The notes beneath the pieces were generated by a model that had not been told where the DNA came from, searched no databases, and saw only the letters and a list, made by a program, of their open reading frames with translations. DNA of 64,000 nucleotides, taken from Camelus ferus. Its lineage: Eukaryota. Location of the stretch: assembly GCF_009834535.1 (NCBI RefSeq), contig NC_045696.1:33358001-33422000 (forward strand), given 5' to 3'. Both the position numbers and the translations under genes were made by a program. Positions 2,740 through 54,260 of this stretch are shown here, piece by piece; within the stretch, counting starts at the first letter, position 1; each line of letters begins with the position of its first letter.

Positions 2740-4231
2740 TTGGAAGTACTTTCACTTCCTATTCCTCCCACTACATAGAAACCCCAAGATGCTGTATGAA
2801 AAACAAACTCTGAAATGTGGAGAGAAGACAGACTAACTAGGAGCCCTAGGACCCAAGGAATGGTGATGAGATCACAGGTTTTCTTTTTGTCCCATTGTCC
2901 CCAGACTTGGTACTGGAGAAGCTAGCAATCCAGAAATGCCAATAGTCACAGATAAACAAACAAAAACTGGCTCTCCTCAACCAAAGGACAAGGAAAAAGG
3001 CCAGTGCAATAGGACAGAAATATTTGAGTTAAAAATCATCTATTTCAAGCAAACATCACATAAAAATCTGTGGCCCTATTTCCATCCCCCAGCAGCTAAG
3101 GCTGAGTGGGGAGCCAAGACTTCCACATCCATCAGGCTGCATGAGGCACCCAACCTACTGCTGGCGTTACATCAGAGAAGCCTGATTAAGGAGCCAGATT
3201 TCTCATCTCCCCACTCAGGGTAAATGGAGATCAGATGGGGAGCCTGCACTCAACCTTGCCCTGTGAAAATGAGTTACCCTCCCTGCTGGGGTGACATCAG
3301 AAAAGGCTTTGTGGAGAGACAAGTCTTTCACCACCAGTTAACATTAATGAGCTCTCACTTCTCACCAATCAGAATGGCCATCATTCAAAAGTCCACAAAT
3401 GATAAATGCCGAAGAGGGTGTGGAGAAAAGGGAACCCTATTACACTGTTGGTGGGAATGTAAATTGGTGCAGCCACTGTGGAAAACAGTAATGGAGATTC
3501 CTTAAGAAACTAAAAACAGAGTTACCATATGATCCACCAATCCCACTCCTCTGCATATATCCAGGGAAGACTCTAATTTGAAAAGACACACGCATCTCAG
3601 CGTTCATAGCGGCACTGTTTACAACAGTCAAGACATGGAAACAACCTAAATATCCACCAACAGATGATTGGATAAAGAAGTTGTGGTATAAAAAGATTAA
3701 AAAGCTAAAGAGCTAACCTTTTCTTAGAAGCAATAATCAGAACATAATATGTAAACTAAAAAAAATGTTCAGCATACTGTATATATGTATTTACATGCAA
3801 TAAATGTGTATGTGCAGTCAAACTGTAATAATTCTACCTAATAAAACTGAAAAAGGAGGAAAAAAATAGATGTATATATTTTTAATTAAGTTTAGTAACA
3901 ACTAGTTTGTTATGGCCCAAGAAACTGTAGAAAATATTGAACAACTCAATCAACAGAACATTCCATTTCTATAAAATTATTTTGCAATATCTTCCTTAAT
4001 TAGCAAACTGATTTGTGTGTTAGCATCAACTCTGACTACACTGGAACGGTTAATCCTCTTATCTTATTTACATTTCCAACACAACATCTTGTAATTTTAA
4101 TGCACAGTAGTTTGAAAATCTATGCATTGCCTTAAATAACAAACTTTTCTCCTGACTATAACTCAACATAATGGTCCTTCTCAACACCTGCATATGATAT
4201 AATCTGTATACAAGCGCACAAGGACAAGACT

Positions 4232-5846
4232 TTCAGTTACTGTACACAGCCCTACAACTATCACCACAATCCACGTTTAGGACTCTTATCATCACATCAA
4301 AGATTTCCTTCTGCTTATTGCAATTGTATTAGAGTTCTCAAAAGAAACAGAACCAATAGGATATATAGATAACAGATTTATAAATGTATAGATGATACAT
4401 GTCTACATAAATACACAGTATATAAAGAGAAGACTTACTATAGGAACTGGCTCATACCAACAAATGCCACAATCTGCTGTTTGCAAGCTGGAGAACCAAC
4501 AAGCCAGAGGTGCAATTCAGTCTAAGTCTCAAGGCCTGTGAATCGGGGGCTGAAGATGTGAGACCTGGTCTGTGTGTGAAAGCCTGAAAACTAGGAGCCC
4601 CAGTATCCAAGGACAGAAAGATGGCCATCTCAGCTCATGCAGAGAGAGCAAATCACTCCTTTTCTGCCTTTCTGTTCTCCTTGACTCTCAAAGGATTGGA
4701 TGCTGCCCTCCCACAGTGGGGACTGCCATCTGCTTTACTCAGTTCACCAGTTCAGATGCTCATCTCTTCCAGAAACACTATCACAGACAGGCTCAGAAAT
4801 AATCCTTTTCCAGCTCTCTGGTCTTTTCTAGAAAAATCATATTGCCTTTTCTAGAAATTTCATATAACGTATCATGCATGAGATAGTCCTTTTTATCTGT
4901 CTCCTTTCATTTAGCATGGTTTGTTTGCGATTTGTCCCATGTTGCGCATGTCTTAGAGGTGTTTTTTGTTTTTTCCCCTGAGAATATTCTGTTTTATGAA
5001 TTTACCATATTTTGTTTATCCATTAAACAGTTGATGAACAGTTGGATGATTTCCAGTTATGGGCTATTATGAATAATGGGATAATGAATATTTATATAAA
5101 AGTTTGCATTACTATTTCTTTTGAGTAATAAAATGTGGGTCATGTAGTAACTGTATGTTTAACTTTTTAAGAAAGAACCAAACTATTCTAAAATGACTGC
5201 AGTGTATGAATGTTTCAGTTTTACATCCTTGCCAACATTTACTATTAGTCTTTTAAAAATTTTTATCCATTTTAGCAGTATCTCTTTTGGTTTTAATTCA
5301 CATTGCCCTAATGGTGTCTCATTGTAGGTTTAATATGCATTTCCCTAACGACAAATGATGCTGAGCTATTTGTTTATCATCTTTGTAAAGCACCTATTCA
5401 AATATCTTGCAATTTTTTTCTGATGAGGAGGTTTTATTATTGAGTCATAGAGTGTTGTATTTATTTTGGACAAAAGCCCTTTATCTGATATATCCTTTGA
5501 AAACATTTTCACTATTTTCTTACTAGTATGTTTGAAGAACAACATTTGTAATTTGACTAAGTACTATAAAATTTTCATTTATTGATTGTGCTTTTGACAT
5601 CATATTTAAGAACACCTTGCCTACCTAAAAGGTCACTTAAAGACTCCTATTTTTTAAAATAAGTTTTGTACCCCTTACTTTTAGGTCTACAACCCATTTC
5701 AAGTTTATTTTTGTTAAGTGTGAGCTAACGGACAAGGTTAATTATTTTTATATGGATAGCCAATATTACTAGGACCATTTTTGAAAATACTATTATTTCC
5801 TTTATTCATCATCTTGTCTTTATCAAAATAAATAGATTGCATATGT
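4232..5846 (-). mobile_element. Old L1 (L1M-type) 3' region, antisense, carried inside the 3691-5855 insertion and interrupted by MLT2
   Basis: tttgtttatccattaaacagttgatgaacagttggatgatttccagttatgggctattatgaataa and downstream sequence are typical of a reverse L1 3' end and ORF2. Confidence 0.75.
4325..4821 (-). mobile_element. MLT2-type ERVL LTR
   Basis: tgtattagagttctcaaaagaaacagaaccaatagga...gcaagctggagaacc...ctgctttactcagttcacc...ccagaaacactatcacagac. Confidence 0.85.
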
Positions 5847-5865
5847 TAAAAAAAAGAAGTTGTGA

Positions 5866-5866
5866 T

Positions 5867-5898
<32 letters not shown>

Positions 5899-5906
5899 TA
5901 CACACA
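5866..5906. repeat. (TA)n(CA)n microsatellite inside the L1 3'UTR
   Basis: Seen directly. Confidence 0.9.
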
Positions 5907-7332
5907 ATGGAATACAACTCAGCCAAAAAAAAAGGGGGGGAATGAAATGCCATTTGTAGTAACATGGATGGACCTAGAGATTATCATACTAAGTGAAGTA
6001 AGTCAGAGAAAGACACATATCATGTGATATCACTTATATGTGGAATCTAAAAAAAAAAAAAAAAGACACTAATGATCTTATTTACAAAACAGAAGAATAC
6101 TCACAGACATAGAAAACAAACTATGGTTACCAAAGGAGAAAGTGAGGGGAGGGATAAATTAGAAGTTTGCAATTAGCAGATACAAATTACTATATACAAA
6201 ATAGATAAACAACAAGGTCCTGCTGTATAGCACAGGGAACTATATTCAATAGCTTGTAATAACCTATAATAAAGAGGAATAAGAAAAAGAATATATATGT
6301 TTAACTGACTCACTAGGCTGCACACCAGAAACTAACAAAACATTGTAAATCAACTACACTTTAATTTAAAAAATAAAACTTATGAATAGTTTATTTCTGG
6401 ATAAAATACTTTACAAAAGATTGTGGAAAAAAAAATTCATAATGAGCCCTCCGTCTTCCAGCAGGGACAGTGGAAATCATGTGAGGAGGAGTAACAGGGA
6501 TTCTTGCCCCTCCAGGCTATTGTGGCCTCCCCAGCGGCATTATTGGCAGCTGAAAATCTCACTCCCCACTACGCAATAATGAGGAACCCTCTCTCCAACC
6601 CCAGGTGTCAGTGGTAGCCAAGAAGGGGACTTGGACTTCCACAACTACCTGGAAGTAAGGAGGTACGACTCACTCCCTTTCCCCTTCTGGAGTGATGTCA
6701 GAAACACTAGTTAACATAAAGAAATAAAAGAGTTAAGATACAGAGTCTTATAACAAATTACTCAAAATGCTCAATTTTCAAATGAAAATCACTTATCTAA
6801 AGAACGAAGAAAATTTCGACTTCAATGAAAAAAAGCCAATCAATAGATATTATCACTGGCATGTATGTCAGATACAGTGGACACATCTGACAAGAACTGT
6901 AAAGCCATCATAAAAATATTTCAACTGGCAATTATGAGCAAGATTAAAACTAATCAAAAATAGAATATATCCTCAAAGAAATGGAAAGTATCAGCAAGAA
7001 AATAAATGCTATAAAGAACCAAATGTAAATTTTATAACTAGAAAATATAGTAACAATAACAACAAAGAACCCAAAATGATGGGCTTAACAATAGAAAAAC
7101 AAAAGAAAAGAATCAGGGAACGTAAAGCTTAAAACAATAGAAATCACCCCATCTTAACCTTACACAAAGTAGACTGGAATTATAATGAACAGAGCCTCAG
7201 GAACTTGTGGGACAGTAAAAAAGATTTGGCAACCATATGATTGTAATCCATAAAAAGAAGAGGGTGAGGCTGAAAAAGTTTTCAAAGAAATAGTGGCTAA
7301 CAATTTTCCACATCTGGCAAAAGGCACAAATT

Positions 7333-7588: not shown

Positions 7589-8970
7589 AAAAGACACAAA
7601 TCAACAGATTCAAGAAGTTTAGTAAACTCCAAACAGCACAAAACTAAAGAAACCAATGCCAAGAGACATCATAGTCAAAAGTCTGAAAATTAAAGACAAA
7701 AAAAAAATAATAAAAGCAGAAGATAAAGGGGAAAAAAGGTATTTAGATCAGAAGGGAAAAAATAAAACTGTCCCTATTTGCAGATGACATACGGTCTTTG
7801 TCTGAAGTCCAAAGTGATCTACAAAAGTAATTCCTAGAACTAATTAGAAGGTACAGCAAGTTTTCAAGATACAAGATAAATATACAAAAATCAATTGTAT
7901 TTCTTTATACTAGCAATGAATAGATAGACATCAAAATTTAAGAATATAATACAATTTACAATTATTCAAAAAAAGAGAGAAATATTCAGATATTAACCTA
8001 AAAGAACAAGCACAGTACTTATATATTGAAAACTACAAAATCCTAATAAAATAAATCAAAGAAAGTATATAAGTAACTGGAGAGACATATTTGTCCATAT
8101 ATTGGATGACTATCCATAGTAAAGATGCCAGTTCTCCTTAAACCATTATACCAGTTTAACACAATTCTTACCAAAATCTTCTGCAAGACTTTTTGTAGAT
8201 TTAGCAGGATTATTCTCAAAGTTCTGTTTCAAGGTTAAAGGAATTAGAATAGCTAAAATAATTTTGAAAAAGGATATTGAAGTGGGAGAAATTACTCTAC
8301 CCTATATTAAGACTTTTATGTAGCTATAGTACTCACGAATCATGGTATTGTTGGAAAGAAAGAAGCGTAGATCAGTAGAGCAGAAAAGAGAACCCAGAAG
8401 CAACATTATATAAGAGAGCCTTTTTTTCCAAAGGTGCAGAAGCAATTTAATGAAAGAAAGATAGTATTTTCAACAAATAGAGATGGCACAATCGACATCC
8501 ATAGGCCAAAACTTTTATCAAAGTCTCACAGGTTATACAAAAATTAAAATGGACCATAGAGTTAAATATAAAATGTAAAACTATAAAAATTTTAAAAGAA
8601 ACCATGTGAAAATATTCTTGGGCATAGATTTTGGTGAAGTAGTCATAGACATAACCTCAAAGGTACAATCCATAAATGAAAAATTAATAAATTGGGTATC
8701 ATCAAAATTAAAATCTTTTGCCCTGTTAAAAGGATGAAATGAAAAACTCCAGATTGGGAGGAAGTATTTGCAAACCATGTATCTGATAAGAGACTCACAT
8801 GTAAGATATATAAAGAACTTTGTAAAAAAATACCTAAACAGTCCATCTGAAAAATAAACAAAAGGCATTTCACTAAAGATGCTATACAAATGGCAAATAA
8901 GCACATGAAAGATGTTGAACATCACTAGCCAGTCGGGCCATGCAAATTAAGACTAAGGAGATATTACTAC

Positions 8971-9508
8971 TGTGCTGGCGTCCACAAGACCAGGTCACTG
9001 ATTCACTAGAACTGATTCAGCATATATTCAAACTACAGCTGTGATTTATTGGAGTGAGATGATAAAAAGCACAATCAGCAAAGGGAAAATGTGCTTGAAA
9101 AGAATTCCAGTTGAAATCAGCTGTGAGCCTACAACAGTTCTCTCCCAGTGTGGTCACCCAGGATACACTTCCTTTGCCAATGAGGTGTGACAACACATGT
9201 GAAATGCTGTCTATCAGGGAAGCTCATTAGAGACTCATTAGAGACTCGGTGCCCAGGTTTTTAATTGGAACCTGGTCATACAGGTACACTCTGCCTAGCA
9301 TATTATCAACATTCTGGACTCCCGGAAGGAGAGCGGGTGTTCAACATAAACCAAAATGTACAAACAATTTCCCTACTGTGAGCCATTCTTATTAGGAAAT
9401 GATGGGAACCCTTTTTAAATCCAAGTTCCAAGATGCCAGCCAAGGGCCAACCTTACAAGCAATTTAATAACAGCAATCTCAAATCTGCTATGTTAGTTCT
9501 TCTGTACA
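8971..9508 (-). mobile_element. MER21-type solo LTR
   Basis: TG...CA termini; ccaagttccaagatgccagccaagggccaaccttacaagc...ctgctatgtta; 5-bp flanks actac/acaac; host L1 resumes on both sides. Confidence 0.8.
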
Positions 9509-12500
9509 ACAACATACCTATTCAGAACAGCTAAAAATTAGTAACAATGCTAAATTCTTGCAAAGATGTGGAAAAACTGGATCCCTACTATGTTCCTGAT
9601 GAGAAAACACAATGATTCAGCCATTCTGGGAAAACTAAGTATACGTTTACCATATGACTAGTAATTGTGTCTGAATATTTCTCCCAGAGATGTAAAAACT
9701 TATGATCACACAAAAATAGACACAGTTGTTTATAGCAACTTTGCAATAGCTCTAACCTGAAAACAATCCAGATGCCCTTTAATCGGTGAATAAACAAACT
9801 AGCACATACATACAATGAAATATAACTCAAGAATGAAAAAGAGTGAATTACTGATGTGTGCGACACTTGGACAGACTTCAAAGGCACTATGCTGAATAAA
9901 AAACCGCAGTCTCAAAGGTTACAACTTGTATGATTCGATTTATAAAACATTTTTGAAATGACAAAGTATGGATATGTAGAACAGATCAGTGGTTGTCAGG
10001 GGTTATGGATGGTGGGCAGGGAGAGGACAGATGTGACAAGCTAGCAAACATAACAAGCTAGCAAAAGGAAATCTTTGAGGTGGTACCAGAGTTCAACATC
10101 TTGACTGGTGGTGGTTACACTGCTCTACATATGTGAGAAAACAACATCGATTAGATCAATTCCCCAGTTTGATTTTGTACTATAATATGCAAAATGTAAC
10201 CAACGAAGGGAAACTGGGTGGAGGCTACGTGGGAACTCTCTGTACTATCTTTGCATCTCTGTACTGTTACTGTGAATCTATAATTATTTCAAAATAAAGA
10301 GGTAAAAAGCTATGGGTTACTAATTACCCTCATTTTAGAGATATCACAGTAGTGTTTCTGCCTCGATGAATTTCTAAAGTGCATGCTTGAGCAAGAGTAC
10401 AAACTACCCCTATCTGAACTGAAACATCAGTATCTTATTTATAAAAGATAAGCTAATATGTTATCCTACAAATTAAAAAGGAAACATTTTAGAAATAAAG
10501 AGGAAGATTAAAAGCCATAATTTCTTACCAGTTAACTTAAATCTGGAAAAAAGTAGGGTACGATTGCTATAAAGAAAAACTTTTCAATTGTGCCCACATT
10601 TTTAATGTCTTGATCCTATATTATCTCCTAAGCATTAGAGTAGAGCCTTTTTATACTTTTTAAAAAACTTAATCTTCAAAACAAACAAAAACTCTGCAAA
10701 GCAGACATGTATATGTTACGTATAAAGGAGACCAAAATGTTTCTGAGTCTAAATAACTCACCCAAGATATCAGAAAAAGTTCTTTGTGTCTATATATCAT
10801 CCTTTTTTAAATTAATGTACTTTTTGACATTAGAAGACTAATATAATTGGTTGCTTAATATAATAAACTAATTATAATTATATAATATAAAATGATAAAT
10901 TACTATATCTTGATTTAATATACCAACAGCTATACATATTATTCAAATTTATCTTCAGTTTATGTATTTTAAAAAAAATCTCTTGAAATCAAACATAAAT
11001 TTACTCTCTTCATAGGTATTTTACTATTTTTCTTTCTAACAAGAATTGATAAAAAAAAAATTCCAAGCAAAAAAATTCTATCTTTATGAAGCATTACCTA
11101 CAAAATCTAAAAATTAAAATAAAATAAAATTTTATTGAGAATATTTAAATTATAATATATCAAATAAAGGATTTCTCATATATTAGAAAATGGAAAATGC
11201 ATGCAGTATTGTGTTAAGCAACCAAAATTTACAGTTATGATTATACTTATGAGTGTATCACCTATATTAGTAAGAACTAAAAACTGTATATCTGAAAGTC
11301 ATTAAAATTTTTGAATGGTAGAATTTTCTTAAAAGTTTTAGTTAATACTGTTTCATTATTTTTCAGTACTATTTTCTAGAAATTGTTTAAAGGATATTAA
11401 AGAGTTTTATTTGATAGCATTTAATTTAGAGAGAATAATTGGTATAATGTAAAATCTGTTTAGTCTTCTAGACACACTTTTGTGCTCTGTACAGTATGCC
11501 AGTATTCAAAAGAAAAAAGCACTGCCATTTAGAAAGACTGGGGATAAAAATTTACAAACTGATATTTATAATAGTTAATAATATGTATAACTGAGTATTC
11601 ATTGAACAAAATATAATGAATATCACAAATACTTTTGGAGCCAATTAAAAAAGACAACTAATACGATGTTTGAGTCACAGTGGAATGGGGTCATAAGGGC
11701 TCTGAATAATTTTAGAAAGATTGCTTTTTATTTCAATCCTGAGGTTACAAGACTGCTTTAGAATAGGCTACACAAATTCGCATACCATTTATCTCACTTA
11801 CCCCTATTTTGTCTTTCCTAATTTCTTTCCTTAGCTTCATAATTAAGCAGATTTGGTTTAGAAGTAAGAGTTGGGCAGATAGGGCAGGTTTATACTTCCC
11901 CATCTCCTCTATCGACCACCACTTTACATCTTTATAGTATGAACTCTCAGCTGTATGTGAAGACTTAGAGCTGCGAAGAAATATAGGGAGTTGTGTTGGG
12001 GGTGGCAGGGTTGAGGGGCACCAATTAATTATATTTCTAGAACTTTGCTGAGGAATGTTGATACTAACAAGAATGAAGTCTAGAAATAGAAGAATAAATT
12101 GTGCAGCTTTTCACCCATCTTGAATAAGTATCTCTCTCACTGTCCAAAAGACACAGAAATCTAAGACTTCAAATGTATTATATAAAATAAATAGCAAAAG
12201 CTATAAAAAGTTTCTAATTACAGAAGTTTCTGAAGTCTGAATGCCACTCTGGAAAAAATACATTTAAAATTCCCATATTTCACCAATTTTTGAGTTTATT
12301 TTGATCTTTCGTGGAGACTTTTCAGCAAGAACACCATAGATTTTTTCAATTACTGTCTCCAAGAGTAAAAATGTAGAACATATATTTAAACCTTGCCCTT
12401 ATACTGGCATTACAAGAAGGCACAAATCACAATTGGTGGGACAGGAGGGAGTATTTTACTTCAACAGGCAAAACTCCATCCGTAGTTAAGAAAATGTATG

Positions 12501-18559: not shown

Positions 18560-20545
18560 ACTTGGCTCCTTGTTCTAATATTAAAATGTAGAATCAGCCT
18601 ATCAGTTTCTAGAAAATACCTGGTTATGATTTCATTGACAGTGACAACTGAATCCCCAAGTCAATTTGTGGAATAGAGTCTTCCAATGCTTTAAATAAAT
18701 ATTTAATTCCTTACAATAAAGCTCTTGTATAACTTTTTTGAATTTACTTCTAAATAGTGTTTATTTTTAAAGTATTGTAAGTTATGCTTTATTTTAAATT
18801 TCCAACTTTTTATTAATGAAAAGAAATTCAATTGACTTGTGCTCATTGACCTTTTTTCATTGGTCTTGTAACTACAAAACTTGCTAAATATCTTATTAAA
18901 CAAAATTTAAAAAATTAAATCATAGAGTTTGTGTGTGTGCAGGGGGTGTTTTATAGAATTCTACTACTATTCAGTATGGTCTGTGGACTGAAGTTGATCT
19001 ACTTACTGTTTACTACTGATAGATAATCTGGCCTGCTTCCTCCTCTGCCCCTTTAAGAATTTGTTGTATTTTGTTTTCTGCAATATTTTTAACATGTCTG
19101 TGTGTGAGTTCCTTTTTACTTATTCTTTTTTCTAATAAATTGGGCTCTTTGATTCTATAGCTTGATGATTTTCATCAGTTCTGAAAATGCTTAGTGATTA
19201 TTGTTCACATTTCATGTCTTTCCCATTCTTTCTCTCTTCTATTCTGAGTTTCTACTTACATGCATGTTAGACCTTAAAGATTCGTCTTCTATTCCCATTG
19301 GATTTTTCATAGGTATGTGTTCTCAAATCTGGATAATGTTTAATGACCTCTCTTCCAGTTTACTAATTATGTTTTCTGTTTAGTCTAAATAGGTGTAAAA
19401 CCATATAGTATTTTACTTTTAGTTAATGTGTTTTTCACTTCTAGACAATCCATTTCAATATGATTTTTAAGTTCACTGTTATTTTTAATGGTTTTCTCTG
19501 GCTTAAATATATATTAATATATTTTAAAATAGTTTTCATATATAAGTTTTATATTTATATGTTATGTATATTAGATATTTTATATTCTATGTCTAATATT
19601 TAATATCCAAAATCTTTTTGTGCCTCTTCCTTGTCTGTTTCTGTGGTTAAACTTACATGGAATTGTTTTCTTGAGTGCCTTGACTGCTTTGACTGTGCAC
19701 ATGTCATTATACAAGAAACAAAAATGTGAAAGCATAATCTGAAGCTTAAGGAAAAAGGTGTCTTTGTCTACCAGCTGACTGTGGTTGCTGCTAGTAGACC
19801 CAAACAGTATGAATGGGATGGCTCTCTTTAAAGAATTTCTGTATTCTGTTAGCCATGTGATTTTATTTTACACCTTCAACACCATATTCAAATTTGCCAG
19901 TCTCCACAATTATTCTCAAAAAAGAAATTTTTTTATGAGCCAAATTATCACAACCAGCCTCAAAAGTATGACTCATAAATATCAGAAACAGTAAGTCCTG
20001 CATTGAACTTTTTATTCACATATGTATATTTATTTATATTACATTTTATGTATAAAATTTAAGTTTATTGATTAGCTTCTTTTTCAAACCTACTTAGACC
20101 TTTTTGATAGTCTCTTTGCTTTCTTATACTTCGAATTCTATATTTTATTTCTCTAAGCATATTAAATATATTTTTATATTATGTATCTGATAATTCCATT
20201 AATTACAGATTTTAAAATTCTGATTATAAAATTTTTGTTTCGATTAACTGTCACACAGGGTGCCTATTATCTACCTATCACTTTTGATAATGTTCTATCC
20301 TTAAAATAAATTTTGGAGATTTTTTGAAGGCCTTAAAGTTTTCTTCCTTCCTTCCTTCCTTCCTCCCTTCCTCTTTTCCTCCCTCCCTCCCTTTCTTTCT
20401 TTTTCTTTCTTTTTTTCCTTCCTTCCTTCTCTTTCTTTCCTTTTTTCTCTCTTTCTTTCTTTTTCTTTCTTTCTTTCTTTCCTTTCTTTCCTTCCTTCCT
20501 TCCTTTTCTTTCTTTCCTTTCTTTCCTTCCTTCCTTCCTTCCTTT

Positions 20546-20609
<64 letters not shown>

Positions 20610-21240
20610 TCCTTCCTTCCTTCCTTCCTTCCTTCTTTCTTTCTTTCCTTCTTTCCTTCTTTCTTTCTTTCCTTCTTTCTTCTTTCTATCTTTCTTTCTT
20701 TCTTCGAGACTGTGTTGCTTCTCTAGGTAAATAGGGGCAAGGACCTGTCTAGGACAACTTTAAACTAAATCTTTAGCTTATAGTTTGAGTACTACATAAT
20801 AGAGTCAATTTTGATATCAAGTATATTTGACAGCAGACTATGTTTAGGAAATCCCAGGAGAGATTTGGGTTTTTTAGGCAAAAAAAAAAAAGTGTCCCAA
20901 ACAACTTCTGAATTTTAGTATTTTTTTGAGTTTTACCCAGTTGAAGACAGTACTTTTCCAGAATTCCAACTTTATGAAGAGTTTTCTGATTGAACCTCCT
21001 GTCCAGGATTTGCCCTATTTATGGTTTTCAGCCAGTTAAAATGAAAACTTCAGGCAGGCTACCTTCAACCAAGGGTCAACAGATGCTCATAAAGCAATTT
21101 AGTGTTTACTTATATCTCCTGAATTGCATTTCTTATATTTTTGAGATTTTTACAATACCTTGATTTCTGTAGCAGCATATATTTTTAGGAATAAATTTTT
21201 GAAATTTATCCAGTATGATTATTATTTCATATTGGAAAGT
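18560..21240 (-). mobile_element. Several ancient L1/HAL1 fragments, antisense, interrupted by a microsatellite
   Basis: T-rich decayed reverse ORF2/ORF1-like motifs, e.g. ttgatgattttcatcagttctgaaaat and gacctctcttccagtttactaatt. Confidence 0.5.
20339..20705. repeat. Compound (TTCC)n/(TTTC)n polypyrimidine microsatellite, ~365 bp
   Basis: Seen directly; almost purine-free on the plus strand. Confidence 0.98.
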
Positions 21241-25576: not shown

Positions 25577-26153
25577 TTTTTGTATTATTACTATTTATTT
25601 TCTGTTTTGTATTATTATTATTTATTTGTTTTTTAAGACTTTTTTATTGAGTTATAGTCATTTTACAATGTTGTGTCAAATTCCAGTGTAGGGCACAATT
25701 TTTCAATTATACATGAACATACATATATTCATTGTCACATTTTTTTTCACTGTGAGCTACTACAAGATCTTGTATATACTTCCCTGTGCTATACAGTATA
25801 ATCTTGTTTATCTATTCTGCATATGCCTGTCAGTATCTACAAATTTTGGACTCCCAGTCTGTCCCTTCCCACCCCCCTCCCTCTTGTCAACCACAAGTTT
25901 GTATTCTATGTCTATGAGTCTGTTTCTGTTTGTATTTATGTTCTTTTTTTTTTTCTGTCCATCAACAGATGACTGGATAAAGAAGATGTAGCATATTTAT
26001 ACAACAGAATACTATTCAGCCATAAAAATGACAACATAATGCCATTTGCACCAACATGGATGTGCCTAGAGAATGTCAGTCTAAGTGAAGTAAGCCAGAA
26101 AGAGAAAGAAAAATACCATATGAGATTGCTCATATGTGGAACCTAAAAAAAAA
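25577..26153 (-). mobile_element. Young lineage-specific L1 3' end with 5' inversion (twin priming)
   Basis: ~25635-25953 is antisense L1 3'UTR, nearly identical to 55870-56180; ~25955-26153 is the adjacent upstream L1 segment in sense orientation; flanks aaaa(g)tttattttct at 25562-25576 and 26150-26163. Confidence 0.9.
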
Positions 26154-32000: not shown

Positions 32001-32461
32001 ATTAGACAAGGTCATTGTCATTGTTATGAAAAAGTTCTCAAAAGTGTGATCTTGTTCCTGAAAGTAATTCATATTTATATTTTATTAATATCAATATAGA
32101 ATCAAGGATAACAGACAAAAATTTCCTAAAGTTCTTTGAATGAGGCAGCAGAGAGCATCGGTGTTCACCATTTGAGATTTTGAAGTCTGAGTATCAGTTT
32201 TACTATTATAAATTTTTCACTGACATTTTTAATATTGTTTGGAAATATGCATATCTGAAAAAAATTTTAAAGTAGTGATATGTTATAATAACAACTAATA
32301 TATTAAGTTCCACATTTAGAGAGGGTAAACTGTGAAAGAGAGGGCTATTTGCAAGAGACTAATTTTTATTTAAAGCCATGGAAGCAATAATCTATGATTA
32401 GAATGACCATGTAATTTATCATTTAAGCCAAGATATTTTTAGGAATAAAAAATGTACTAAA

Positions 32462-35228
32462 GTTCACTGAAGAAATAAAAGAGGAAAATAAAAAATACCT
32501 GAAGACAAATAAATACAAAGACATAATAATCCAAAATTCATGGGACTCAGAGAAAGCAATTCTAAAAGGGAAGTTTATAGTAATACAAGCCTACCTTATG
32601 AAACAAGAAAAATCTCAAACAACCTATCCTTACACAAAAGGAACCAGGAAAAGAAGAAAAAATAAACCTCAAAGTTAGTAGAAAGGAAGAAATAATAAAG
32701 ATCAGAGCAGAAATAAATGATATAGAGACTAGAAAAACAATAGACAAGATCACTGAAACTAAGAGCTGGTTTTTTGAAAAGATAAACAAAATTGATAAAT
32801 CTATAGCCAGACTCATCAAGAAAAAAAGAGAAAGAGCTCAAATAAAATTGTAAATGAAAAAGGAGAAGTTAAAACTAACACTACATAAATACAAAGGATC
32901 ATGAGTTACTACAATTGCATGCTAATATGATGGGTAACATAGAAGAAATTAACAAACTCCTAGAAATAATATTTTATCTCTCAAGACTGAATCTGTAAGA
33001 AAGATAAAATATGAACAGACTAATTACCAGAGATGAAACTGAATCAGTTAAAAAACAACAGCAACAACAACAAACTCCCAAAAACGTCCAGGACTAGATG
33101 GCTGCACATTTCACAGGTGAATTCTAACAAACGTCTTTCACAAACTATTCTAAAATATTATAGAGAAAGGGATGCTTCCAAACTCGTTCTGTGAGGCCAG
33201 CACAACCCTGAATAACAAAACTAGACAAAGATACCACAAAAAAAGAAAATTATAGACCAATACCACTCATGAACAGAGATGCAAAAATCTTCAACAAAAT
33301 ATCATCAAATCAAATTCAATAATACATTAAAAAGATCATACATCATAATCAAGTGGGGGTTATCCAAGGGATGCAGGGATGGTTCAACATTCCCAAATCA
33401 ATCAGTGTGATATATATACCACATTAAGAAACTGAAGAATAAAATCATATAAACATTTATGATAAAAGCTCTCAATGAAGTGGGCATAGAGGGAACATAT
33501 CTCAACATAATAAAGGCCATATATGATAAGCCCACAGCTAATATCATACTCAATGGTGAAAAGTTGAAAGCATTTACTTTAAGCTCAAGAACAAGACAAG
33601 GATGTTCACTCTCAACACTTTTATGCAACATAGTGTTGAAAGTACTAGCCATAGAAATCAGAAAAAGAAATAATGAGAATCCAAATTGGAAAGGAAGAAG
33701 TAAAACTGTCACTGTTTGCAGATGACACTATACTATACACAGAAATCTTAAAGATACCACCAAAAATCTACTTTTGATAAGTGAAATCATCAATGAATTC
33801 AGAAAATTTTCTGGATATAAAATTAATATACAGAAATCGGTTGTGTTTCTATACACTAACAACAAACTATCAATGCTATCAGTGAACTATCAGAAACAGA
33901 TATTAAGAAAACAATCCCACTTACCATCACACCAAAAAAAAAAAAAAAACCTAGGAATAAATCTAATTAAGGAGTATAAGACTTGCACTCAGAAAACTAT
34001 AAGAACTGATGAAATAAATTAAAGACAAGAGTAGCAAATGGAAAGATGTATCATGTTCATGTATTACAAGAATTAGTAATGTTAAAATGACCATACTACC
34101 CAAGGCAATAAATAGATGCAATGTAGTCCTTAATAAAATACCAATGGCATCATTAATAGAACTAGAACTCATAATTTTAAAATATCTATGGAAACACAGA
34201 AGACCCTGATTGGCCAAAGCAATCCTAAGAAAGAAGAACTAAAATGGAAGAATCACAATTCTTGATTTCAAAGTAAATTACAAAGCTACAGTAATGAAAA
34301 CAGTATGATACTAACACAAAAGCAAATATATATCTATAGAACAGAACAGAGACTCCAGAAATGAACACATAGAAATGTACACAGCTCACAAATTAACTCA
34401 CCACACATAGATGGTGGGTTAATCCATGACAAAGGAGGCAAGAATATGCAATGAGGAAAAGATAGCCTCTTCAATAAATGGTGATGGGAAAAGTGAACAG
34501 CTACATGCAGAAGAATCAAATTGGGTGACTATGTCACACTATATACAAAAATAAACTCAAAATGGATTAGAGACTTAAATATAAGACCTGAAACCATAAA
34601 TCACATAGAAGAAAACATAGGCAGTACACTCTTTGACATCAATCTTAGCAATTTTTTTTTTCTTGGATATGTCTCCTCAGTCAAGGGAGACAAAAGCAAA
34701 AATAAGCAAATGGGATTACATCAAACTAAAAAGATTTGCACAGCAAAGGAAACTATCAACAGAATAAGAAGGCTGCCTATTTAATGGGAGAAGATATTTA
34801 CAAGTGATATATCTGATTAGGCGTTAACATCCAAAATACACAAAGAAGTCATACAACTCAACATTAAAAAACCAAACAACCCAATTAAAGAAATGGGCAG
34901 AGGCATTTGCAGCAACATGGATGGAACTGGAGACTGTCATTCTAAGTGAAATAAGACAGAAAGAGAAAGAAAAATATCATATGATATTGCTTATATGTGG
35001 AATCTTAAGGATACAAATGAACTTATTTACAGACTTACATAGAGAACAAACTTATAGTTACCAAGGGGTTAAGGGGGTGGGAAGGGATAAATTAGGAGTT
35101 TGAGATTTGTAGATATTAACTAGTATATATAAAATAGATAAACAACAAGTTTCTTCTGTATAGCGCATGGAACTATATTCAATATGTTGTAGTAACCTAT
35201 AATAAAAAAGAATATGAAAATGAAAAAA
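32462..35228 (+). mobile_element. 5'-truncated L1 with degenerate ORF2 (RT domain), internal deletion and shortened 3'UTR
   Basis: ORF track peptides [56 protein letters not shown] and YTKINSKWIRDLNIRPETI; FADD codons at 33715-33726; multiple frameshifts and stops. Confidence 0.95.
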
Positions 35229-35959
35229 TGTGCAGAGGACCTGGATTTTTACATGGAGTTGTCTGTGGATCATAAATTATAATTCTTTTTTCAATCTTGT
35301 GAAATTCTACTTCTTTTTCTTGACATTTTACCATCAAGATCTGCCTTTGCAGTGCTGAACAGAAGTTGTAGTTTCTAAGTATTTATTTTGTTAGATCACA
35401 GAGAAAAGTTTTTCAAAATTTCTTCCTCAAATTTGATGTTTATCATTGTTGCTTGGTAGATTCCCTTTAAATGGTTAAGAAAATCTCCTAGTTATAGTGT
35501 GCTAGGAGTTCTGATAATACATTGATGTTGAATTGCTTAAAAAATAATTTTACATACGTGGAGCTACTCACAATTTTAAACATTAAAAAACAACGTTACA
35601 TTTCTGGCTAAATTAACTTTCAATGTACTTTTAATTCATTTGCTAATCTGTATTTTTGCATTTATGCTCATGAGTGAGATTGGCCTGATATTTTTCCTCT
35701 CTTGTAATATTCTCATGGTTTAGGATCATGCAAATCCTAGCTTAGTAAAATGAGCTAGGGGCTGGATTTAAAGAAAATTTGTTGTGTATTTGATGTTATT
35801 TCATTTAAAATGTATAAAATACACTATGTTGTTAACTCTCCAGTGATGTAAAAGGGAAGGCCCTTTGTTCAGGTTTTCTGTTTGGTCATAGTGAGTAGTT
35901 GGTTCCAAATACCCATTCTTCTATTCTCAAGAGCTCAACACTACATAGAAGAGCAATAC

Positions 35960-37174: not shown

Positions 37175-37228
37175 ATGCTCACTTCGCAGCATATATATTA
37201 AAATTGGAAACAGAGAGAAAATGTATGG
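37175..37228 (+). pseudogene. RNU6: U6 snRNA 5' fragment (3'-truncated pseudogene)
   Basis: atgctcacttcgcagcatatatattaaaattggaa matches the U6 5' end GTGCTCGCTTCGGCAGCACATATACTAAAATTGGAA with 4 transitions and a 1-nt gap; weaker match continues ~20 nt; 3' half absent. Confidence 0.8.
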
Positions 37229-37924
37229 GGTAAGACCCAGATTAATTTGTGTCCTCTTTTTCTTCTGTATTCTCTCTGCTTTGTTTTACTTAAACTAGTG
37301 ATAAGCTTTAATCCGGGAAAGTCCCAAATATTTTTAAAACTATAATATATTCATGAAAAAATGTGAACGAAGGTTAATGGAAGTAGAGACAAATCATTTT
37401 CATCTGTATTTGTCTGGTGTAAACATCCACCCACTCAACATAAATTTGCTAATCTTCTCTAATATTGAATATACTAAAATACATTTACAAAAACTTCCCA
37501 CAAACTGCATAGAAATTGGGATGCAGGGTTAGGCAATGCATTTAGAGCACAATTCAAGATAAGCCTTTAGAAAAACAGATAACTTTTCAGTTGAGTTGAG
37601 AAGATAAACAAACAAGAGATAATGTTTTGATAACCTAAAAAGCAGTTCAGAAAGGAAAAAGAGAAAAGCACTAACACTGATTTTGAAAAATATTGGAAAG
37701 TTGGTTTGACTTGCAGTTCTCTAACTTTCAATTACACTGATAAGACTTCAGACACATATAATAGCAATCCTAATTTTAGTACATTCACAGGAAAAATAAA
37801 AATTCAACTACCTTGCTACAAAGATAAAATTAGGCAATTGTTTCAATAATATACTGCATATATTTTTATTTGCATCTCAAGTAAGTGAAATTATTGTAAT
37901 ATATCAGTACTATTAAAAAGCCTA

Positions 37925-41154: not shown

Positions 41155-41325
41155 AAAAAAGTATTTATTTATTTTAAATTTATTTTTATTTATTTATTTT
41201 TATTTTTTGGGGGGTAATTATGTTTTATTTATTTACTTATTTTTTAATGGAGGTACTGGGTATTGAACCCAGGACATCACGCATGCTAAGTGTGCACTCT
41301 CCCATTGAGCTATATACTGTGCCCC
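41155..41325 (-). mobile_element. tRNA-Ala-derived SINE (camelid vic-1-type)
   Basis: Reverse strand reads ggggcacagtatatagctcaatgggagagtgcacacttagcatgcgtgatgtcctgggttcaatacccagtacctcca plus an A-rich tail; A box TAGCTCAATGG, B box GGTTCAATACC; TSD aggctgttt at 41146-41154 and 41330-41338. Confidence 0.9.
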
Positions 41326-42787
41326 GAGCAGGCTGTTTTTTTAAACAAATCCTAGAATTTTAACCCATCAGGTTTCAAAAGGTAGCAAACAATGGGCAGA
41401 TAAAATTGGAGAGAAGGAATAGAGCAGAATTGTGAACTCAAGCTTGTGATGTCTAGAAGCTGTCCCAAGAAGAAGAGAAAGCTGTCATGTTATTCTTGCC
41501 CAGGTTATTCTTTGCAAATGTATAGAGAAACACTCAATCTTTATCCAGATGCAGGAAAGTAATAAGGACTGAGAGACAGCCAAGTGTGTTTAGGAAAATA
41601 GTTCTTCCTCATGGCAACCAGGTTCAACAAGAGTTTTGCAAATGTTCCATCATTCAGTGAAGTGGGAGTGGATAATTTAGTCTTTATCTCATTGTTAAAC
41701 TGAATAGGGAGGCTTAGCAAAATACAGAAGACACACCCTTCATGTGATAAGGGTATTTTCAGAAAGGAATAAAGGGTGAGAATTTGTTTTCATATTTCTA
41801 TTCTTCAATAGGTCCACTATTGTGCTCTGCAGATAGCAATTTTTTGGATAAACTTGCAAAACATTACTGAAGTAATATATGGAAATATTTCCAAAATGAT
41901 ATTTTCTCACTGACTCTAACTAGTTTATCAAATTTCAATAATATATATAGGAATGCCTGCCTTTACTGTGCCTTAAAGACCCAACTCGAACCACACATCA
42001 TGTGTCCTTTATTTTGTCAAAGTGGTCTTTGACAAATCTTATGAGATGAACGTCACAAAAAAAACCTCCTAGTTTTGAGTTCATTTTGTGGTTTTTTGTT
42101 TGTTTGTATGTTTCACTTTATAAAGCTACTAGCAGGAGATCTGGTGGTTGGACGTCTACCAACAAAACCTGGGCTGGATCTCCACAGTTCAAACAAAGGC
42201 TGCAATGAAGTAGTCTTAGAGTGCATTCTCCATTCTGATGACTGGCTAGACATAGCAGTAAAATAAAAGACAGTTCTACAAGTCTCTATATTATTTCACT
42301 TAATTTCTTCTCTGAGAAAATAATTGCTGCATTGGACATGTCTAACTAGTGAGGACAAGTAGGTATAAGCTATACATCAACTCATCGAGACTTCTGAAGA
42401 GGGAAAAGGTTAAACATAATAAAAATTGCTGCAGTTCAGAAAACATAATTGAAAAGGAGTTTTGGAGTATTCTCTATTAGCAAGATATAGAGAATAGTTC
42501 TCCCAGTTCAGAACACCAAATATACTAAATAAAACATGAAGATAAAACATGCTTTTGTTTCAAATAAAAGAGCTGGAGGGAAAGTCAGGAAAACAACTGG
42601 AAAAGAGAAATAAAGTGGAGCCCTGAAGGATGAAGGGATATTGAGTAGCATTTACCCATATGGCATCTGCCAAACCCTAGTGACTCATAATATGACATTA
42701 GCAGGGTGTACACGTATGTGGGATCTGTGACAAAATCCTCGGTCTAAGGGAGAATGAAAGGTCAGGTTAGAAACCTCCCTACAATCA

Positions 42788-49675: not shown

Positions 49676-50870
49676 AACAAGAAATCTTATTCACTGCTCT
49701 GGGAATGTAAAACGGTACAGCCACATTGGAAGACAGTCTGGCAGTTTCTCACAAAGCTAAACATAGTTTTTTACCATATGATCCTGCTACTGTGCTCATA
49801 GACATGCACCCAAATGATGTGAAAATTTATGTTCACACAAAAACAGGCATGCAAATGTTATGGAAGCTTTATTCATAATTGCCCCAAACTGTAAGCAACC
49901 AAGATGTCCTTGAATAGGTGAATAGACGAACGAACTGAGTATCACTTTACTTAGTGATAAAAATGAGTGAGCTACCAAACCATGCAAAGGCATAGATTAA
50001 TCTTAAGTGCATATTGGTAAGTGAAACAAACAAGTCTACCGATCTACATATAGTCTATACCACTCATACGACATTCTAAAAAAGGCCAAACTATGGAAAT
50101 GGCAAACAGATCATTGGCTGCCAGTAGTTCACAGAGAGAGAGTTGGATGTTGAGGAGATAAAGTACAGGGGATATTTGAGGACAATAAAACCATTCTATA
50201 AAATATTGTAATGTTGGATACATAACATTATTCATTTGTCAAAATGTATAGAATTTCACAATACAAAAATTAAACATTAAAGTATACAAATTAAAACAAA
50301 AATATTAAGAAGGCTGGGGATCCCGGAATGGAACGGAGAACCTCATAGAAGGATCTACCTGACTCTATTGCAGACGTGTACACCCCTACTGAAGGATATG
50401 AGGGATAAAGATGCTAATGCAAATACCTCTGAAAATGAGCAGAGTCTAAAAGATTAAGGCAAAAGGAATTTTACAGATGCACTGTAGTCTATTGATAAAT
50501 TTGTTTCCCATGAAGGTACCAGTCAACTATCCTGAAACCACCGTACACGCATGTTAGAATTGAGTAAATAAGTTAATAGGTGTCTATAATGGAACTTGAG
50601 AGCTTGTTTGGAGGTTCTAGCAGAGGAGCACAGCTACTCCTATACCCTGACAGAAAAGAACGGTCCTCCTCTATCAGGAAAGGTCGTCCTCTATGACCAA
50701 GCACGCAGCTTCAGGAGGGACGCACGTGAAGCATTGAGAGAGGAAAAGGGACACCTGCCTAACCAGCCAGATCAGCCGAATCAACCCTGGAGATCAGTGG
50801 GGTGACAGACGTCTCAGCCAGATCACCCTCACATCCTAGATGTATAATGTTGGGAGGCAGATTTCTCACT
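49676..50870 (+). mobile_element. L1MC-type 3' end with long 3'UTR (L1MC3-like)
   Basis: gggaatgtaaaacggtacagccacattggaagacagtctggcagtttct...ttatgttcacacaaaaac...gcaaccaagatgtcctt. Confidence 0.75.
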
Positions 50871-53599: not shown

Positions 53600-54260
53600 T
53601 TTTTTCTAATGAAGTAGCATTGCCTCGCCTCACGGAAGAACTAGCTAGAGCAAGTTTTAGGCGGTGGGCTTCCTGTAACTTGTCAATTGTTGTTTTCCTG
53701 AGGTTCTAACCTTAAGGAGATCAAAGAGCAAGACAGGCAGAGCATGCATTTCGGCACTGATCTCGGACCGTAAAGACCCAGCGAGCCAGGCAAGTGCGAT
53801 TCACACCGGTTCAACCTCCCTCTCCCTTTGCCACCTCTTTGTGCTCCAGCATTTTTCAAGTTCAATTCCTTGTTCCTGCCCCGCTTATCATTGTACTTTT
53901 ACTTTAACCTTGAGCTCAGCAATCCCAGTTGGTATAGCTCTGTTACTTGAAGCAACAAGCAACTTTTCCTTTCAAGTTAGCAACTCTTTGTACTACTTTC
54001 CTGATGAAAATATTTTCCAGCTGGAAACTGCTCTAATTCCCTCATCAGACTGTAGTTTACGGTCCTGGATTTCCGGAGGCCTTTCCCACCCCCAAGGCGC
54101 TTTTGAATAGATTGCTTTATTCACTTATCTATAGGGTGCCTTCAAAATACCCCTGTGAAGATATGTGCCTTTGCGCCTGTGAAATCTTTCTAAGCAGAGT
54201 TTGACTGAACACAGCCAACGGTAAACTAGAATCGGGATAACTAGCAACCTCGGAATTAAA
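53600..54260. promoter_or_regulatory. Candidate promoter/enhancer (CpG-retaining non-repetitive block)
   Basis: 17 CpGs counted in 53625-54252 in an otherwise CpG-depleted window; ETS-like cggaag and cttcctg; ctagcaac RFX-like half-site. Confidence 0.3.

What the first reader, a model, noticed from the sequence alone, without database searches (positions are those of the whole stretch)
3674..5864. ~2.16 kb polyadenylated insertion with TSD: probable L1 3' transduction of distant genomic DNA
Seen: a young L1 3'UTR breaks at aaagaagttgtggtata (3674-3690) and resumes at aaagaagttgtgattata (5853 onward), a duplication of at least 12 bp at a CTTT/AT endonuclease-like site. Between the copies lie a ~175 bp segment ending AATAAA plus an A-rich tail, ~360 bp of non-repetitive-looking DNA, and an ancient antisense L1 interrupted by an MLT2 LTR. 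The insert ends with AATAAA (5827-5832), 15 nt, then an A-run. Elements far older than the host L1 cannot have inserted into it on their own, so the block must have been copied in. Established: L1 read-through past its weak polyA signal mobilises 3' flanks. Inference: the first 175 bp is the tip of the source L1 and the rest is its donor flank, terminated at a cryptic polyA site inside the antisense L1.
Basis: partly seen in the sequence, partly recalled or inferred. Interest (0 to 1): 0.75.

Follow-up and report, generated by a model that had tools for sequence, protein, structure and literature searches.

The report
Retro-copied genomic block inside camel L1
A 2.2-kb stretch of old repeat-rich DNA was copied through an RNA intermediate into a jumping element of a camel-family genome; this is an ordinary product of L1 retrotransposition, and its source locus was not found.

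Summary
The anatomy holds. A 2,162-bp block (3691-5852) splits a 5'-truncated L1. It lies between target-site duplications (12 bp exact, about 17 bp with two differences) at a CTTT/AT nick site and ends in AATAAA, 15 nt and a short A-run. The two host halves are colinear and sit inside the host's own probable TSD. About three quarters of the block is a much older antisense L1 split by an LTR-like piece. This is very probably an L1-primed insertion of a polyadenylated RNA made elsewhere (about 0.9).

Two details fail. The host L1 is not young (80-83% identical to other window copies). The first 175 bp is not a recognisable L1 3' end (1.9 bits at best, against 72-137 for the host tail), so the 'source-L1 tip' is unsupported.

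Best reading: an orphan 3' transduction (about 0.5). Close rival: a 5'-truncated retrocopy of a non-L1 transcript's 3' end (about 0.33). The donor, the empty site and expression were not tested: no genome is held and no reads were laid. A new member of a known kind; low interest.

The parts
3345..3356 (+). left copy of the host L1's own probable TSD (11/12 match to 6440-6451)
   Evidence: chance about 0.02 over 40x80 junction pairs
3357..3690 (+). host L1, 5' piece (end of ORF2), 5'-truncated, middle-aged
   Evidence: 82.5% identity to L1 56700-56150(-) up to 3690
3674..3690 (+). left TSD of the insert (12 exact, about 17 with differences); nick site CTTT/AT on the bottom strand
3691..3867 (+). 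5' segment of the insert, 25% GC, AATAAA at 3799 and 3840, A-rich end; unclassified, not a recognisable L1 3' end
3868..4240 (.). unclassified AT-rich DNA, possibly a very decayed antisense L1 ORF2 relic (inconclusive)
   Evidence: 171/253 identities to the RT region in 33450-33900; 0/300 target-wise, 5 of 40 window-wide
4241..4323 (-). distal 3'UTR piece of the old antisense L1
   Evidence: 4315-4262 aligns to 10060-10113, 41/53, 0/200 resamples
4324..4822 (-). LTR-like segment, 43% GC, one end missing; MLT2/ERVL-type by recall only
   Evidence: sequence, composition; no clear second copy in the window
4823..5847 (-). old antisense L1 (ORF2 end and 3'UTR), 66-68% identical to window L1s over long alignments
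5827..5832 (+). AATAAA polyadenylation signal 15 nt before the A-run, inside the antisense L1
   Evidence: chance about 0.03
5848..5855 (+). A8 run (5 A outside the TSD): decayed poly(A) tail
5853..5870 (+). right TSD, running into a (TA)n(CA)n microsatellite (about 5866-5904)
5871..6377 (+). host L1, 3' piece (3'UTR to AATAAA at 6372)
6440..6451 (+). right copy of the host L1's probable TSD

Best explanation
An L1-driven, target-primed insertion of a polyadenylated RNA copied from another locus; most likely an orphan 3' transduction. Steps: (1, inferred) an active L1 elsewhere was read through past its own poly(A) signal into at least 2.16 kb of flank made of old repeats. (2, anatomy shown) the RNA passed three AATAAA and was cleaved 15 nt after the AATAAA in the antisense strand of an old L1, then tailed. 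(3, anatomy shown, enzyme inferred) L1 ORF2p nicked CTTT/AT inside an existing L1 3' end and reverse-transcribed from the tail. (4, inferred) synthesis stopped after 2.16 kb, before reaching the source L1, and repair left a TSD of about 17 bp. (5, inferred) the tail shrank and the TSD copies drifted. No function is indicated. Insertion by this route about 0.9; orphan transduction specifically about 0.5.
For: TSD, nick site, signal and A-run. Colinear host halves inside a probable second TSD. In the better of two anchored alignments, old-L1 homology reaches the A-run and the run has no counterpart in L1 34375-34520. About 74% of the block (4241-5847) is old repeat, which looks like intergenic or intronic flank; 0 of 9 insert ORFs scanned hit Pfam; no strong splice motifs on the + strand. 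In human data a signal lies 10-30 bp before 274 of 349 transduction ends, canonical signals are often bypassed, and germline orphan transductions have a median of 968 bp (PMC13009371 passages).
Against: No donor or sibling copy was found: none in the window, no genome held, no look-alike in earlier findings, 0 hits for one 22-mer in metagenome contigs. No source-L1 sequence is recognisable in the insert. In 1,019 human genomes monoexonic processed pseudogenes (216) outnumber orphan transductions (48) (PMC12350158 passages). The tail is only 5 A beyond the TSD. The second anchored alignment (8375-8510) was poor and put its own T-run against the tail. 2.16 kb is over twice the quoted germline orphan median.
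Confidence: 0.5

Rival explanations
1. 5'-truncated retrocopy, made in trans by L1 proteins, of the 3' end of a non-L1 Pol II transcript (long 3'UTR isoform, lncRNA, intronic-polyadenylation or read-through RNA). The two AATAAA in 3691-3867 could be that transcript's proximal sites and 5827 its distal site.
For: Same hallmarks as the best explanation. No L1 tip. Monoexonic retrocopies outnumber orphan transductions 216 to 48 in human polymorphism data.
Against: About three quarters of the block is decayed repeat, unusual for the end of a well-expressed mRNA (own knowledge). No coding remnant in 0 of 9 ORFs scanned.
Confidence: 0.33
2. Partnered 3' transduction: 3691-3867 is the tip and first tail of the source L1, possibly of a side lineage with a different 3'UTR.
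For: AATAAA at 3840 followed by an A-rich stretch. A 51/66 local match to the young tail at 25930-25630(-), 0/300 resamples, and 10/300 for its sister copy. Two tails are typical of partnered events.
Against: Scores 34-44 against host and young tails, where the host tail scores 127-172 against four tails; 8 of 10 targets not above chance. nhmmer finds the tip with 1 of 4 tail profiles, at 1.9 bits and E 4, against 72-137 bits for the host tail. One L1 lineage is active at a time in mammals (PMC5381506, abstract start in listing), so a source younger than the host should match; exceptions exist (recalled).
Confidence: 0.06
3. DNA-level copy: a templated insertion or dispersed duplication at a staggered break, with the signal and A-run coincidental.
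For: The tail is short; A-runs of 5 or more occur 4.2 times per kb in this window.
Against: It needs a TSD of about 17 bp, an endonuclease-like site, an AATAAA at the right distance (about 0.03) and an A-run all by coincidence.
Confidence: 0.06
4. No insertion: the block is original DNA and the flanking L1 pieces are two separate insertions.
For: Continuity of the older element outside the host is only weakly shown (score 38, 3/300). No empty site was seen.
Against: One piece would have to end and the other begin at the same 17 nt of L1, with equal identity to the same reference and a shared outer TSD.
Confidence: 0.02

Closest known systems
Orphan L1 3' transduction (definitions in PMC13009371 and PMC12350158, passages read)
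   Same: TSD, endonuclease-like site, signal 10-30 nt before a tail, non-exonic-looking content, no companion element
   Different: Old and apparently shared by two organism labels rather than polymorphic; source L1 and donor not identified; longer than the quoted germline median (968 bp)
Partnered L1 3' transduction (Goodier 2000, Pickeral 2000; seen only as reference entries)
   Same: An internal AATAAA plus A-rich stretch followed by flank and a second tail
   Different: The 5' segment is not a recognisable L1 3' end
Monoexonic processed pseudogene / retrocopy (PMC12350158, PMC13756887, passages read)
   Same: Same insertion hallmarks; insertion inside a LINE has precedent (canine FGF4 retrogene)
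   Different: No parent gene, exon junction or coding remnant identified

Membership tests
L1-mediated (TPRT) insertion | Target-site duplication | tested here: met
   12 exact, about 17 with 2 differences
L1-mediated (TPRT) insertion | Endonuclease site like 5'-TTTT/A | tested here: met
   CTTT/AT, one mismatch to the consensus quoted in PMC4476161
L1-mediated (TPRT) insertion | Untemplated poly(A) tail after a signal | tested here: inconclusive
   Signal 15 nt before A8 is met. Untemplated status rests on one of two paralogue alignments; no donor to compare
L1-mediated (TPRT) insertion | Empty site in an orthologue | not tested
   No genome held; no reads or contigs laid
Partnered L1 3' transduction | Source-L1 3' end at the 5' side of the insert | tested here: not met
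   (against six L1 tails of this window only; no repeat library)
L1 3' transduction (orphan or partnered) | Donor paralogue of the flank elsewhere in the genome | not tested
   Absent from this 64-kb window; the rest of the genome was not examined
L1 3' transduction (orphan or partnered) | Source L1 or its empty site upstream of the donor | not testable with these tools
   Needs the donor locus in an assembly
Processed pseudogene / retrocopy | Matches exon(s) of a parent transcript ending at the same poly(A) site | not testable with these tools
   No annotation or genome held; 0 of 9 insert ORFs scanned hit Pfam
MLT2 (ERVL LTR) | Match to the family consensus, TG...CA ends, short TSD | not testable with these tools
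   Label recalled; one terminus seen at 4324, the other lost with about 67 nt of L1

The most novel reading that the evidence does not exclude
The insert is a fossil of a germline long-3'UTR or read-through isoform of a host gene: 3691-3867 is the gene's normal 3' end with tandem AATAAA, and the other 2 kb is an extension to a distal site inside an antisense ancient L1. It would record an old camelid alternative-polyadenylation isoform. A variant is a second-generation transduction, in which the first AATAAA and A-rich stretch is the tail of an earlier transduction.
Probability: 0.15. Interest if true: 0.5.

Novelty: new member of a known kind. Interest (0 to 1): 0.25.

Why it matters
Little on its own. 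L1 3' transductions and truncated retrocopies are common and described in humans and dogs. The two searches that covered camelids and livestock (15 of 15 and 20 of 36 papers listed) showed no title on camelid transductions, so it may be an unreported example and could serve as a presence/absence marker in camelid phylogeny. It also shows that old insertions lacking any element sequence can be found from TSD and tail anatomy alone. It would matter more if the donor proved to be a gene's long 3' isoform.

Tried and rejected
Whole genome: none held. Donor in the window: none. Laying reads and contigs gave no data, so donor, empty site and expression stay open. One 22-mer in metagenome contigs: 0 hits, a weak test. 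Earlier findings near, by sequence, in relatives and by words: nothing.

Tip as an old L1 tail relic: 2 of 6 hand-picked stretches scored high (57 and 45), but both came from the tile scan, 6 of 40 window-wide resamples reached 57, and the six stretches do not align with each other. Not accepted. 3868-4240 as an L1 RT relic: 5 of 40 window-wide, and the second RT copy gave 196/300; inconclusive. tblastx found nothing convincing in 3691-4240.

Pfam: 1 of 52 ORFs hit (RVT_1 at 33453-33722, outside the insert); I gave 9 of the 52 ORFs and 45 of the 78, two being in both lists. Rfam: nothing in the insert. Run X20 (share 0.06) and runs X21-X24 are no evidence. A shared T in both TSD copies where two other L1s have A was not used, since it may be the family state. 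Szak 2003 (PMC156586) is not held. No supplements were read.

Full report
Setting. The window is AT-rich mammalian DNA rich in L1 pieces. A tRNA-derived SINE at about 41200-41330 (Rfam tRNA hit) and the young L1 tails look camelid to me by recall. Unchecked earlier notes on this genome call it a camel. No whole genome is held.

The duplication. AAAGAAGTTGTG is exact at 3674-3685 and 5853-5864 and occurs twice in the window. It extends to 17 vs 18 nt with one substitution and one indel. I take the TSD as about 17 nt because the left copy follows the L1 at 56700-56150(-) to 3690. Chance is 3e-4 over 40x40 junction pairs. The bottom-strand nick site is CTTT/AT, one base from the 5'-TTTT/A consensus quoted in PMC4476161 (passages).

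The host. Against that reference the left half aligns to positions 26-369 at 82.5% and the right half resumes at 375 at 83.1%. The whole host lies between an 11/12 repeat at 3345-3356 and 6440-6451 (chance about 0.02). Continuity of the older element outside it is only weakly shown (3/300). Two separate L1 insertions are therefore unlikely. The host is not young: its tail is 83% and 74% identical to two older copies and 67% to the two youngest, which are 93% identical to each other.

The insert. 4823-5847 is an old antisense L1, 66-68% identical to window L1s. Its 3'UTR continues at 4262-4315 beyond a 499-bp LTR-like piece, colinear with the L1 at 9500-10310 and short of about 67 nt at the junction. 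The MLT2 name is recalled, not tested. These repeats are far more decayed than the host, so they were copied in as a block (inference). AATAAA at 5827 lies 15 nt before an A8 run; a signal falls in such a window by chance about 3% of the time. In one anchored alignment the old-L1 homology reaches the run and the run has no counterpart; the second was too poor to tell.

The first 175 bp. Against 10 L1 3' ends in the window, 8 were not above chance. The two young tails gave 44 (0/300) and 41 (10/300), and the better alignment is 51/66 in AT-rich sequence. The host tail as positive control scored 80-172 on 5 of 9 targets and nothing on the 4 oldest. With nhmmer the tip appeared in 1 of 4 profiles, at 1.9 bits and E 4; the host tail scored 72 and 137 bits in the two profiles built without it. 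A source L1 must be no older than the host, and mammals mostly run one L1 lineage at a time (PMC5381506, abstract start in a listing). A real tip should therefore have scored like the control. The test used only this window's copies, so a side lineage is not excluded. 3868-4240 may be a decayed L1 RT relic, but the match is not significant window-wide (5 of 40).

Age and distribution. One or two changes over 34 TSD site-copies give 3-6% per copy with a very wide interval (0.07-21%), and they sit beside a microsatellite. With the short tail this suggests an old event, but it is no date. Of 24 runs listed, 14 hold 0.90-0.92 of the insert's 224 sampled words, under two organism labels and six study codes. 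That loss equals about 0.25% divergence or contig breaks. So the block is real DNA in two close organisms. The query had no junctions, so this does not prove the insertion sits at this locus in them, and the best holder may be the assembly's own sample.

Mechanism. Shown: TSD, nick-like site, signal, A-run, split host, older cargo. Inferred: reverse transcription by L1 ORF2p of a polyadenylated RNA from another locus, truncated at 2.16 kb (about 0.9). Open: which promoter made the RNA. Human data give 48 orphan transductions against 216 monoexonic processed pseudogenes (PMC12350158 passages), which favours a retrocopy a priori. The cargo is about three-quarters decayed repeat with no Pfam hit in 0 of 9 ORFs scanned, which favours plain genomic flank. 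My weighting, a judgement and not a computation: orphan transduction 0.5, retrocopy 0.33, partnered 0.06, DNA-level copy 0.06, two L1s 0.02. Bypassing three AATAAA before ending is not unusual (PMC13009371 passages).

What was not done. The donor, the empty site and RNA ends were not examined: one search gave no data and one search found 0 matches in a collection unlikely to hold camelid DNA. These tests decide between the two leading readings.

Comparison and verdict. It works like an orphan 3' transduction or truncated retrocopy, both described in humans and dogs (passages of PMC12350158, PMC13009371, PMC13756887). Membership in 'partnered transduction' fails the one feature I could test; membership in 'orphan transduction' is untested. 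The camelid TE survey PMC8605555 contains the word 'transduction' once, not among the passages shown. Searches listed no title on camelid transductions. No supplements were read; those of the camelid survey could bear on family names. Unchecked earlier notes describe a retrocopied non-L1 RNA inside an old L1 and an L1-carried exon in this genome; they are leads only. Verdict: real, ordinary, a new member of a known kind; interest 0.25.

Noticed in passing
window 6378-6439: The host L1 itself has about 50 nt between its AATAAA (6372) and an A9 run (6427-6435) before its probable TSD: a possible short 3' transduction or decayed tail.
   Followed up: partly
window 50510-50836 (-): Full-length 7SK RNA match (Rfam, 205 bits), probably a retropseudogene, lying between old L1 pieces.
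   Followed up: no
window 25630-26153: Young L1 3' end in two opposite orientations (25931-25716 minus, 25958-26153 plus): looks like a twin-primed 5' inversion.
   Followed up: no
window 41200-41330 (-): tRNA-derived SINE (Rfam tRNA 34 bits); camelid type by recall.
   Followed up: no
window 37175-37230 (+): Resembles the 5' part of U6 snRNA by recall; not reported by Rfam at gathering score.
   Followed up: no
window 53600-54110: CpG-richer, non-repeat-looking stretch with a 143-codon stop-free frame and no Pfam hit; possibly regulatory.
   Followed up: partly
window 8970-9510: A roughly 530-bp LTR-like segment (recall) interrupts the old L1 at 8300-10310.
   Followed up: no
window 20339-20704: 365-bp (CTTT/CTTC)n microsatellite.
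   Followed up: no
window 32450-35230 (+): About 2.8-kb decayed L1 ORF2 and 3'UTR (RVT_1 hit at 33453-33722) with an internal deletion near 34900.
   Followed up: partly
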